This document shows positions 22,811 to 23,782 of a stretch of 32,000 bases of DNA, in pieces. This stretch comes from Promethearchaeota archaeon (GTDB taxonomy: Archaea > Asgardarchaeota > Lokiarchaeia > Sigyniarchaeales > SOKP01): the NCBI GenBank assembly GCA_030606485.1, contig JAUWGH010000001.1:270001-302000 (forward strand). The letters run 5' to 3'. The first letter of the stretch is position 1. Each line of letters opens with the position of its first letter. The position numbers were made by a program, and so were the translations under genes. The notes under the pieces are model-generated. The model saw nothing but the letters and a program-made list of their open reading frames with translations. It ran no database searches and was not told where the DNA came from.

Positions 22811-22827
22811 TAAAAATTTTAATACTA

Positions 22828-22851
22828 AATATTTTTTTTTAATTTTTTTTT
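22828..22851 (+). terminator. T-tract terminator of gdhA
   Basis: Two consecutive long T runs just after the stop codon, typical of archaeal intrinsic terminators. Confidence 0.5.
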
Positions 22852-22906
22852 AATAACTCAAATATTTAAGATTCTTTGAATTCCTTGATAATTACATTAA
22901 TTTAAT

Positions 22907-22912
22907 AAAAAA
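22907..22912 (-). terminator. T6 tract, probable terminator of the 5S precursor
   Basis: Minus-strand TTTTTT lies just past the trailer stem of the permuted 5S gene. Confidence 0.45.
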
Positions 22913-22923
22913 TAGAATGCAAA

Positions 22924-23069
22924 TCGCACTAAATTTCTGAGTTCGGAAAGGGATCAGGTTTTTCCAACATCCTATGACCGTTAACGAATTAACAGTTTAC
23001 AGTTTCCCAATAATCGCAATATCAGTACTATCTGTAACGATATGTTGTTTAACTTCCAGTCTAGTGCGA
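22924..23069 (-). other. Bulge-helix-bulge-like processing stem enclosing the permuted 5S
   Basis: Leader TCGCACTAGA (23069-23060) pairs with trailer TTTAGTGCGA (22933-22924) over 10 bp, one of them G-U. Central 4-bp helix CTGG/TCAG. 3-nt bulges AAG (23055-23053) and AAA (22936-22934). Confidence 0.85.
22935..23053 (-). rRNA. rrf: 5S rRNA gene, circularly permuted (3' half 23053-22989, TTCG linker 22988-22985, 5' half 22984-22935)
   Basis: Reordered halves give a complete 5S. Helix I: TTAACGGT/ACTGTTAA. Helix II: GGATGTTG/CAACATATC with a bulged A. Helix III and loop C: AACCTGA-TCCCTTTCCGAAC-TCAG AA GTT. Loop E: AGTA/GAA. Loop D: GCGA. Helix V: GTTACAG/CTGTAAAC. 115 nt plus the 4-nt linker. 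Confidence 0.93.
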
Positions 23070-23097
23070 AGTGCTATAAATTAATAATAAACCCTTT

Positions 23098-23105
23098 TAT
23101 TTTAA
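23098..23105 (-). promoter_or_regulatory. Candidate TATA box for the 5S precursor
   Basis: Minus-strand TTAAAATA preceded by purine-rich AAAAGTAAAA (BRE-like), 24-31 nt upstream of where the leader stem begins (about 23074). The AT-rich background makes this weak. Confidence 0.4.
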
Positions 23106-23242
23106 TTTTACTTTTTACATACTATTTTCAATCTAATTGTAATATTCCAGCGTTTATTATGAAAATTTTCCTTAAAACTCTTATTTTAGTTGATTTACTT
23201 TTAGAAAATTTAAATAGTTTTGAAAATAATCTTAAAATATCG

Positions 23243-23782
23243 ATGCCTAGTAAAATAATTGTATTTTTCAAACGTGTTGGGCGCAACTGGTTTCTAATTT
23301 TTATAATAGCCGTGATTTTCGTTTTTTTTATCGAACAGATATTAGCAATTTGGTTAGTGGGTATTGCACTAGTTCTATATTTGTTATCGTTTCTTCCTAA
23401 TATCTTCTTCAAGAGATCCTTAAAAGGAAAAATGATGGAATATTATATGATTGAAGAAGATACAATTGCTCATAAAATGAAAAAACCATTGAGAAAAATT
23501 AGAGAAACGTTATTTAAATTATCTCAAAAACAACGCAAAAAAACCTATCTAATTGTATATTTAGATAATAGATATATTTATTTTCACGAAGAAACTGTTA
23601 ATAAGTTTAATGAACTTTATAAAAAAGGATTTGGTGAGAAGGAAATTCTCGAGGGTATGAAAAAATACGATTTACAAACCAAATCGGAGGTCAAATATAT
23701 CTTGAATACTCTTAAGAAACATAATCGGCTACCAGAAAGAGAGATCTCTGTAAAAGAGTATAGAGATAAGGATAGATATTAA
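23243..23782 (+). CDS. Membrane-anchored protein of unknown function (2 N-terminal TM helices, basic cytoplasmic domain)
   Basis: Track ORF 23042-23782. The 5' part overlaps the 5S gene and its promoter and is low-complexity, so ATG 23243 (MPSKIIVFF) is the likelier start. Confidence 0.75.
   Translation: MPSKIIVFFKRVGRNWFLIFIIAVIFVFFIEQILAIWLVGIALVLYLLSFLPNIFFKRSLKGKMMEYYMIEEDTIAHKMKKPLRKIRETLFKLSQKQRKKTYLIVYLDNRYIYFHEETVNKFNELYKKGFGEKEILEGMKKYDLQTKSEVKYILNTLKKHNRLPEREISVKEYRDKDRY

What the first reader, a model, noticed from the sequence alone, without database searches (positions are those of the whole stretch)
22977..22996. Native 5S termini sealed by a UUCG tetraloop, so the mature 5S may be a covalently closed circle
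Seen: helix I (ACUGUUAA/UUAACGGU) is closed by only four nucleotides, UUCG, with an A-U rather than the usual C-G closing pair. There is no BHB or spacer here, unlike permuted tRNAs where an intervening piece is removed. Inference: after splicing the RNA may remain an end-less ring in the ribosome, resistant to exonucleases. Alternatively a second nuclease reopens the loop.
Basis: partly seen in the sequence, partly recalled or inferred. Interest (0 to 1): 0.65.

Follow-up and report, generated by a model that had tools for sequence, protein, structure and literature searches.

The report
Tetraloop-capped, probably circular 5S rRNA
The 20-base hairpin is the sealed outer end of this Asgard archaeon's only 5S ribosomal RNA gene, which is written back half first between tRNA-splicing cut signals, so the working 5S is most likely a closed 119-base ring, but no RNA data could be reached to show that the ring stays closed.

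Summary
On the minus strand, 22996-22977 reads ACUGUUAA-UUCG-UUAACGGU, an 8-bp helix I capped by a tetraloop with an A-U closing pair. Such a hairpin alone is not above chance (47 in the window, 39 in shuffles). Context makes it real. It sits in the genome's only 5S-like gene, which is circularly permuted. A canonical bulge-helix-bulge motif flanks the gene, and cutting and joining there gives a 119-nt 5S of exact consensus length.

In 86 distinct relatives helix I is 99% paired, with compensatory changes up to the closing pair. The cap is exactly 4 nt (Y-N-N-G, mostly UUCG) in 80 of them. Its sequence changed at least 30 times on the tree and its length class only twice. That is the behaviour of a retained structural cap, not of a discarded spacer.

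The window shows no second processing motif at the cap. The sister family's normal 5S genes need no end-trimming. The genome has two EndA paralogs and RtcB.

A permanently closed ring is therefore the best reading (about 0.55), but it is unproven. No RNA run held the locus. The scan noted the same feature earlier in at least 52 other Asgard genomes. I found no paper describing it.

The parts
23098..23105 (-). Candidate TATA-like box (TTAAAATA) that would place the transcription start near 23075, upstream of the leader. Assignment is uncertain: other TATA-like words lie at 23091-23084 and 23080-23075.
   Evidence: Read. The spacing rule (TATA starts at -30) comes from the normal 5S genes of the sister family. 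Inference only.
23060..23069 (-). Leader strand of the outer (processing) helix of the BHB, UCGCACUAGA.
   Evidence: It pairs over 10 bp with 22933-22924 and is formed in the MFE fold of the precursor. A related strain has G>A at 23061, turning G.U into A-U.
23056..23059 (-). Leader strand of the 4-bp central BHB helix, CUGG. It pairs with UCAG at 22940-22937.
   Evidence: A related strain has G>A at 23056, turning G.U into A-U.
23053..23055 (-). 5' BHB bulge AAG. The predicted cut lies after 23054, so the ring starts at G23053.
   Evidence: The cut position follows the canonical rule (after the 2nd bulge nucleotide), taken from established knowledge and not tested here.
22989..23053 (-). 3' part of the 5S (65 nt): loop B 3' side, helix II 3' strand, helix V, loop E (AGUA/GAA), helix IV, loop D, and helix I 3' strand (22996-22989).
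   Evidence: Aligns to Rfam 5S positions 24-120. Helices II, IV and V covary in relatives.
22985..22988 (-). UUCG tetraloop joining the native 3' and 5' ends (the finding).
   Evidence: In relatives: UUCG 40, UUAG 14, UUUG 13, UACG 4, CUCG 3 and others among 86 distinct sequences.
22935..22984 (-). 5' part of the 5S (50 nt): helix I 5' strand (22984-22977), loop A CAUA, helix II 5' strand, helix III and loop C (CCGAAC). It ends with UCAG AA. The ring ends at A22935.
   Evidence: Rfam 5S alignment. The joined sequence CCGAACUCAGAA|GUUAAAC has consensus length.
22934..22936 (-). 3' BHB bulge AAA. The predicted cut lies after 22935.
22924..22933 (-). Trailer strand of the outer BHB helix, UUUAGUGCGA.
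22907..22912 (-). Oligo-U run (UUUUUU), a likely archaeal terminator just after the trailer.
   Evidence: Read. The normal 5S genes of the sister family end in similar U-rich runs. Inference.

Best explanation
The hairpin is helix I of the organism's only 5S rRNA, with the positions of the native 5' and 3' ends joined by a four-base cap. The gene is circularly permuted: leader, 3' 65 nt, UUCG, 5' 50 nt, trailer. Leader and trailer pair into a canonical bulge-helix-bulge motif. The tRNA-splicing endonuclease (two EndA paralogs) cuts both bulges, and RtcB joins A22935 to G23053. This restores helix III and loop B and yields a 119-nt covalently closed ring. The cap is not cut again, so the ring itself is assembled into the large subunit with a closed tip on helix I. 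Shown here: gene order, the BHB, a consensus-exact junction, family-wide conservation and covariation, the enzymes encoded, and a cap constrained in length and pattern. Inferred: cleavage, ligation, and above all that the ring is the final ribosomal form.
For: (1) The permuted 5S is the only 5S-like hit in a genome rated 100% complete.
(2) The BHB is canonical: 10-bp outer helix, 4-bp central helix, two 3-nt bulges. The junction restores the consensus without an indel. It also appears in the MFE fold.
(3) A model of the permuted order finds the gene in 118 of 131 family genomes, and in two other families of the order.
(4) The structure is 94% paired, and helix I is 99.4% paired with compensatory changes next to the cap.
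(5) The cap is 4 nt in 80 of 86 distinct sequences. Position 1 is U or C in 79 of 80, and position 4 is G in 78 of 80.
(6) On a tree built without the cap columns, the loop sequence changed at least 30 times and the closing pair at least 12 times, but the length class only twice.
(7) On identical helices the loop varies among UUUG, UUCG, CUCG and UUAG and never varies in length.
(8) There is no bulge, spacer or tRNA-like fold at the cap.
(9) Normal 5S genes of the sister family have a TATA box at -30 and an oligo-U directly after the gene. The lineage therefore needs no 5S end-trimming enzyme.
(10) As an open duplex, the capped helix I is weaker than the normal one: mean -7.6 kcal/mol (window -6.0) against -11.2.
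(11) EndA x2 and RtcB are encoded.
(12) Precedents exist: the permuted SRP RNA of T. tenax is a mature functional circle (PMC4731332), and circular 23S rRNA has been reported inside archaeal ribosomes (PMC12918454).
Against: There is no RNA evidence for this locus. No RNA run held it, and the holders were DNA. Selection for a tight cap could also act only on folding of the precursor or of a short-lived ring. Precedents exist for reopening of circular intermediates: permuted tRNAs (cited in PMC4267664), and 16S/23S circ-pre-rRNAs and P. furiosus 23S (PMC7758197, listed). One related genus carries a conserved, structured 34-35-nt element at the cap; it could be an expansion or a processing element. 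The duplex-energy comparison rests on 20 against 9 related sequences and on helices of 8 against 9 bp. A-U closure makes this particular UUCG loop only moderately stable (-5 kcal/mol).
Confidence: 0.55

Rival explanations
1. The ring is only an intermediate. After BHB cutting and ligation, a second nuclease opens the cap, and the mature 5S is linear with near-native ends in helix I. Permuted tRNAs and most archaeal circ-pre-rRNAs behave this way.
For: Precedents: permuted tRNA genes mature through a circular intermediate (cited in PMC4267664), and circular pre-16S/23S are generally thought to be re-linearised (PMC12918454). A conserved structured insertion sits at the cap in one genus and could be a processing handle there.
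Against: A 4-nt loop on a perfect helix offers no known recognition motif. There is no BHB and no tRNA-like structure here. A discarded linker should drift in length, but it changed length class only twice against at least 30 sequence changes. Relatives with normal genes make 5S without end processing. An opened helix I in the window would end in four A-U pairs (-6.0 kcal/mol).
Confidence: 0.15
2. The transcript is cut at the BHB but not ligated, or only a minor part is. The working 5S is then a linear, permuted molecule with its ends in helix III/loop B and a capped helix I, like the permuted mitochondrial 5S of brown algae.
For: A permuted linear 5S with helix I replaced by a hairpin works in brown-algal mitochondria (PMC4267664). 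The sequence data here cannot tell a nick from a joint.
Against: The ends would lie in the most conserved, protein-binding beta domain. Two different junction positions in the family (loop B side and loop C side) both restore the consensus exactly. EndA products are the normal substrates of RtcB, which is encoded. The analogous T. tenax SRP RNA is ligated. Earlier notes of this scan report the joint in RNA of related Asgard lineages (not checked here).
Confidence: 0.15
3. The primary transcript is used as it is, with leader and trailer kept paired as an extra stem and no cutting.
For: The outer 10-bp helix would hold the two parts together without any enzyme.
Against: Helix III could not form. 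UCAG at 22940-22937 is sequestered by the leader, and the loop B strand is displaced. The bulge sizes and the 4-bp spacing are conserved as a BHB across genera while the flanking helices differ in sequence. Substitutions in a related strain keep the BHB paired.
Confidence: 0.05
4. A chance hairpin in a decayed 5S pseudogene.
For: Hairpins of this size are as common as chance expects in this 30% GC window. The Rfam score is below the threshold (28.9 against 38 bits).
Against: It is the only 5S-like locus in a complete genome. It is conserved with covariation in 118 of 131 family genomes. It has no substitutions between strains across 22907-23055, while the flanks differ.
Confidence: 0.02

Closest known systems
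Permuted, circular SRP RNA of Thermoproteus tenax / T. uzoniensis (Plagens et al. 2015, eLife, PMC4731332)
   Same: A permuted gene of an essential structured RNA. Leader and trailer form a BHB that is cut by the splicing endonuclease, and RtcB-type ligation restores a functional element. The former ends are replaced by continuous sequence. The mature RNA is a circle.
   Different: A different RNA (5S rRNA, a ribosome component) and a different phylum (Asgard). Here nothing has been shown at the RNA level. The native-end helix is kept and capped by a tetraloop, whereas in T. tenax helix 1 is lost.
Circularly permuted tRNA genes of Cyanidioschyzon merolae (Soma et al. 2007, as cited in PMC4267664)
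   Same: The 3' half is encoded before the 5' half, and BHB-type cutting and ligation give a circular RNA.
   Different: There an intervening spacer joins the native ends and is removed afterwards, so the mature RNA is linear. Here the linker is a 4-nt tetraloop with no processing signal.
Circular pre-16S/23S rRNAs of archaea and circular 23S rRNA inside ribosomes (PMC12918454; P. furiosus permuted 23S, PMC7758197)
   Same: BHB-dependent circularisation of rRNA. A closed rRNA ring has been reported as the ribosomal form for 23S.
   Different: Those genes are collinear. Circularisation joins the native ends and is not needed to restore the order of domains. 5S is explicitly stated not to take this route (PMC12918454).
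Permuted mitochondrial 5S rRNA of brown algae (Valach et al. 2014, PMC4267664)
   Same: A 5S whose helix I is a closed hairpin, which shows that a capped helix I is compatible with 5S function.
   Different: That molecule is linear and permuted in the final product, with ends at the alpha/gamma junction. It has no BHB and no ligation. It is organellar.
Minor circular 5S species in Halobacterium salinarum and Sulfolobus (PMC12558985, which cites Danan et al. 2012)
   Same: Covalently closed 5S-derived RNAs exist in archaea.
   Different: They arise from normal genes, have heterogeneous junctions, and are interpreted as degradation-related. They are not an obligate product of gene structure.

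Membership tests
5S rRNA (Rfam RF00001) | Score at or above the gathering threshold on the gene as encoded | tested here: not met
   28.9 bits against 38. The upstream part alone scores 12.1 bits. The shortfall is explained by the permutation.
5S rRNA (Rfam RF00001) | Three-way junction with helices I-V, loop C CCGAAC and loop E AGUA/GAA | tested here: met
   All elements are present once the two parts are read in ring order. Helices I, II, IV and V covary in 86 distinct sequences, 94% paired.
5S rRNA (Rfam RF00001) | Free 5' and 3' ends at the distal end of helix I | tested here: not met
   In the gene these positions are joined by UUCG. The state in the RNA was not testable.
BHB-circularised permuted RNA (T. 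tenax SRP RNA type) | Permuted gene order with leader and trailer forming a helix - 3-nt bulge - 4-bp helix - 3-nt bulge motif at the new ends | tested here: met
   Outer helix 10 bp, central CUGG/UCAG, bulges AAG and AAA. The inner helix is absent (0 bp), so this is an hBHB form.
BHB-circularised permuted RNA (T. tenax SRP RNA type) | Splicing endonuclease and RtcB ligase encoded | tested here: met
   Two PF01974 loci (104 and 67.6 bits) and one PF01139 locus (579.5 bits) in the same genome.
BHB-circularised permuted RNA (T. tenax SRP RNA type) | Ligated junction present in cellular RNA | not testable with these tools
   No RNA holder was listed, and the runs laid were DNA contigs. The junction-pattern scan hit only genomic DNA of a second junction class.
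BHB-circularised permuted RNA (T. tenax SRP RNA type) | The mature functional form is the circle (gel mobility, exonuclease resistance, presence in the RNP) | not testable with these tools
   This needs experiments. Only indirect comparative support exists.
Permuted tRNA-type maturation (circular intermediate, then reopened) | A removable intervening sequence or processing signal between the native 3' and 5' ends | tested here: not met
   A 4-nt loop on a perfect 8-bp helix, no tRNA-like fold, and no BHB at the cap.
cUUCGg (UNCG) extra-stable tetraloop | UNCG loop sequence | tested here: met
   UUCG at 22988-22985. UNCG-type loops (UUCG, UACG, UCCG) make up 46 of 86 distinct relatives.
cUUCGg (UNCG) extra-stable tetraloop | C-G closing pair | tested here: not met
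   The window has A-U. Relatives have G-C 49, C-G 18 and A-U 16. The hairpin is -5.0 kcal/mol.

The most novel reading that the evidence does not exclude
Ribosomes of this Loki-type Asgard family, and by earlier notes of this scan much of Asgard, carry an obligately circular 5S rRNA. This would be an end-less ribosomal RNA that can only be made by tRNA-type splicing of a back-to-front gene and that is never reopened.
Probability: 0.55. Interest if true: 0.8.

Novelty: new variant of a known kind. Interest (0 to 1): 0.6.

Why it matters
5S rRNA is taken to be a linear molecule with free ends in every ribosome studied, and a review-level statement says that archaeal 5S does not go through circularisation (PMC12918454). 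If the ring is the working form, it would be the first rRNA whose gene order makes circularisation obligatory. It would extend the moonlighting role of the tRNA-splicing machinery from SRP RNA to the ribosome, in the archaeal group closest to eukaryotes. In practice it explains why standard tools report no 5S gene in these genomes: no match over Rfam's cut-off was found in the family genomes searched. The covariance model built here finds them at 84-112 bits. The tetraloop question is directly testable with one RNase R/Northern or small-RNA experiment on any enrichment of this family.

Tried and rejected
(1) RNA evidence. The look-up of sequencing runs listed no RNA holder. The four holders (X1-X4, one study) proved to be DNA contigs of a related strain up to 34 kb long, so nothing can be said about expression, ends or joints.

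(2) Junction search. I scanned metagenome contigs for the spliced junction pattern, hoping for transcript-derived contigs. The pattern was badly chosen. It is contiguous in the DNA of the second junction class, and all 16 hits are such genomic genes. This is not an RNA test, and the cap for that scan is spent.

(3) Rfam. The search at gathering threshold finds nothing in the window.

(4) The hairpin as a statistical oddity. Rejected: 47 such hairpins in the window against 39 in shuffles.

(5) BHB or intron at the cap. There is none in the window. In the 34-35-nt cap insertions of one genus there is no canonical BHB that would restore UUCG. There is only a relaxed candidate (central UUGC/GCAA, 2-bp outer helix) of doubtful meaning.

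(6) Promoter. Several TATA-like words precede the leader. The one nearest (23080-23075) would start transcription inside or after the leader, so the assignment stays open. The sigma-70 scanner was not used because the organism is an archaeon.

(7) The automatic BHB finder over all relatives was noisy. I rely only on the clear cases.

(8) Literature. Seven searches found no paper on a permuted or obligately circular 5S in archaea. The library lacks most subscription journals.

Full report
OBSERVATION. The 5S lies on the minus strand. The reverse complement of 22977-22996 is ACUGUUAA-UUCG-UUAACGGU. It forms eight contiguous pairs and a four-base loop with an A-U closing pair, and it has no bulge. 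It folds as such alone (-5.0 kcal/mol, z -3.7) and inside the precursor, in both MFE and centroid. A hairpin of this size is not remarkable in itself. The 30% GC window holds 47 of them on its two strands, against a mean of 39 in shuffles. Its meaning comes from where it sits.

WHAT IT IS PART OF. Rfam finds nothing at gathering threshold. A permissive scan aligns 22985..22883 to the whole 5S model at 28.9 bits. The 5' half fits well (helix I 5' strand, loop A CAUA, helix II, helix III, loop C CCGAAC) and the rest fits poorly. The stretch just upstream, 23075..22987, aligns to model positions 24-120. That covers the helix II 3' strand, helix V, loop E AGUA/GAA, helix IV and the helix I 3' strand. 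The gene is therefore circularly permuted: a 3' part of 65 nt (23053-22989), UUCG (22988-22985), and a 5' part of 50 nt (22984-22935). It is the only 5S-like locus in a 3.75-Mb genome rated 100% complete. No tRNA-like fold is present.

THE NEW ENDS.
- The leader UCGCACUAGA (23069-23060) pairs over 10 bp with the trailer UUUAGUGCGA (22933-22924).
- Next comes a 4-bp helix, CUGG (23059-23056) with UCAG (22940-22937).
- This helix is flanked by the 3-nt bulges AAG (23055-23053) and AAA (22936-22934).
- Each strand reads helix, four pairs, bulge, which is the canonical bulge-helix-bulge geometry. The inner helix is missing.
- Cutting after the second bulge nucleotide and joining gives ...CCGAACUCAGAA|GUUAAACAACAUAUC... 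. This matches the 5S consensus with no indel and closes a 119-nt ring.
- The MFE fold of 23070..22924 shows this motif and the capped helix I.
- DNA contigs of a related strain carry no difference across 22907-23055. They carry G>A at 23056 and at 23061, each turning a G.U of the BHB into A-U.
- The genome encodes two splicing-endonuclease paralogs and one RtcB.
- An oligo-U run (22912-22907) follows the trailer. The promoter cannot be placed with confidence.

RELATIVES. Earlier notes of this scan place the genome in the Loki-type Asgard archaea.
- In the window's own family no genome searched had an Rfam 5S match over the cut-off. The sister family has normal 5S genes at 53-69 bits.
- I aligned 17 permuted cores. 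The permuted-order structure is 94.5% paired, with 21 of 29 pairs changed on both sides, and no shuffle or slid control comes near.
- I built a covariance model from that alignment. It finds one gene in 118 of 131 genomes of the family at 84-112 bits. It also finds the gene in two other families of the order. In the sister family it gives only weak hits (31-33 bits).
- Two junction classes exist. In one the joint lies between helix III and loop B, as in the window. In the other it lies on the 5' side of loop C. Both restore the consensus.

THE CAP IN RELATIVES. In 101 model-aligned genes (86 distinct) helix I is 99.4% paired. The three pairs next to the loop switch among A-U, G-C, C-G and U-A. 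The closing pair is G-C in 49, C-G in 18 and A-U in 16.
- The loop is UUCG 40, UUAG 14, UUUG 13, UACG 4, CUCG 3, UCCG 2, plus singles. Exactly four bases occur in 80 of 86.
- Seventeen further genes add UUCG 14, UUUG 2 and UACG 1.
- Two genes of a more distant family read CUCG and UGCG by eye.
- On a tree built without the cap columns, the loop sequence changed at least 30 times and the closing pair at least 12 times. The length class changed only twice.
- Sixteen sediment contigs with an identical helix I differ only at loop positions 1 and 3.
- Three distinct sequences of one genus have a structured 34-35-nt stretch in place of the 4-nt loop; it ends in UUCG or UUUG. Its architecture is shared between two divergent versions. 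I found no canonical BHB that would remove it.

DOES THE RING STAY CLOSED? Direct data could not be had. Four indirect arguments favour a permanent cap.
- First, a linker that is thrown away should drift in length, as spacers of permuted tRNA genes do. This one keeps four bases and a Y-N-N-G pattern through much sequence turnover.
- Second, in the window the cap offers no known handle for a nuclease.
- Third, normal 5S genes of the sister family have a TATA box starting at -30 and an oligo-U directly after helix I. The ancestral state therefore needed no 5S end-processing enzyme.
- Fourth, as an open duplex the capped helix I is weaker than the normal one. The mean is -7.6 kcal/mol (window -6.0, with four terminal A-U pairs) against -11.2. 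This is a small and non-independent sample.

There are also precedents. The permuted SRP RNA of Thermoproteus tenax is cut at a BHB, ligated, and functions as a circle (PMC4731332). Circular 23S rRNA has been reported inside archaeal ribosomes (PMC12918454). A capped helix I works in brown-algal mitochondrial 5S (PMC4267664).

Against the closed ring: tight caps may be selected for precursor folding alone. Reopening of circular intermediates is the rule for permuted tRNAs and for many pre-rRNAs. The cap element in one genus might be a processing site.

VERDICT. Rivals: reopening at the cap 0.15; cut but not ligated 0.15; unprocessed transcript 0.05; pseudogene 0.02.

NOVELTY. I found no paper on a permuted or obligately circular archaeal 5S. 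Minor circular 5S species from normal genes are known and are read as decay products (PMC12558985). The scan itself noted the same feature in at least 52 other Asgard genomes. Some follow-ups report the joint in environmental RNA. I did not check those, and they do not count as support here. The mechanism belongs to a known kind, BHB circularisation of a permuted RNA gene. Its application to 5S, with a tetraloop-sealed helix I, is a new variant.

Noticed in passing
L144, L159, L025 (relatives; loop D of the 5S): Some relatives carry a 30-nt canonical hBHBh' intron inside loop D of the permuted 5S. Its outer helix is helix IV (6 bp), its central helix is UUGC/GCAG, GCAA or GUAG, and its bulges are GAU or GAA on the 5' side and AAU or AGU on the 3' side. 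Splicing restores UUGCGA|U.
   Followed up: partly
L035, L038, L049, L060, L086 and others (relatives): Another group of relatives has a predicted ring of 150-151 nt instead of about 120 nt. The extra ~30 nt lie between helix III and the loop C side (...UCGGGAAC CCGG...). Whether this is an intron or an expansion was not resolved.
   Followed up: no
L026, L061, L073 (genus g6): In place of the 4-nt cap there is a structured 34-35-nt stretch (architecture UUG..UUGCG-hairpin-CGCAAGCA.AAG) ending in UUCG or UUUG. It is shared by two divergent versions. It has no canonical BHB.
   Followed up: partly
L012, L014, L018, L025, L144-L159 versus window 22935/23053: The family has two different permutation points. 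In one the joint lies at the helix III/loop B side, as in the window. In the other it lies at the 5' side of loop C (bulges AAC and UCA/UCU). Both use a duplicated helix III strand in the leader as the BHB central helix.
   Followed up: partly
L004/L139 (G032:C1:1399892-1400758): A sister-family genome has three tandem normal 5S genes about 375 nt apart. The permuted-order model hits weakly across the copy boundaries. This suggests tandem duplication as a route to permutation.
   Followed up: no
window 23245 onward (+) and 22935-23053 (-): A conserved neighbouring gene (start MPSKI..., ATGCCTAGT at 23245) lies downstream of the 5S and co-oriented with it in other genera (e.g. L026). In this genus it is upstream and divergent, so the 5S gene appears inverted relative to its neighbour. 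The listed ORF 23042-23782 probably starts at 23245 and does not overlap the 5S.
   Followed up: partly
window 22812-22907: In the related strain of runs X1-X4, the AT-rich spacer between the upstream gene's end and the 5S terminator is replaced: 94 nt are skipped and 60 other letters stand in their place. The 5S itself is identical.
   Followed up: no
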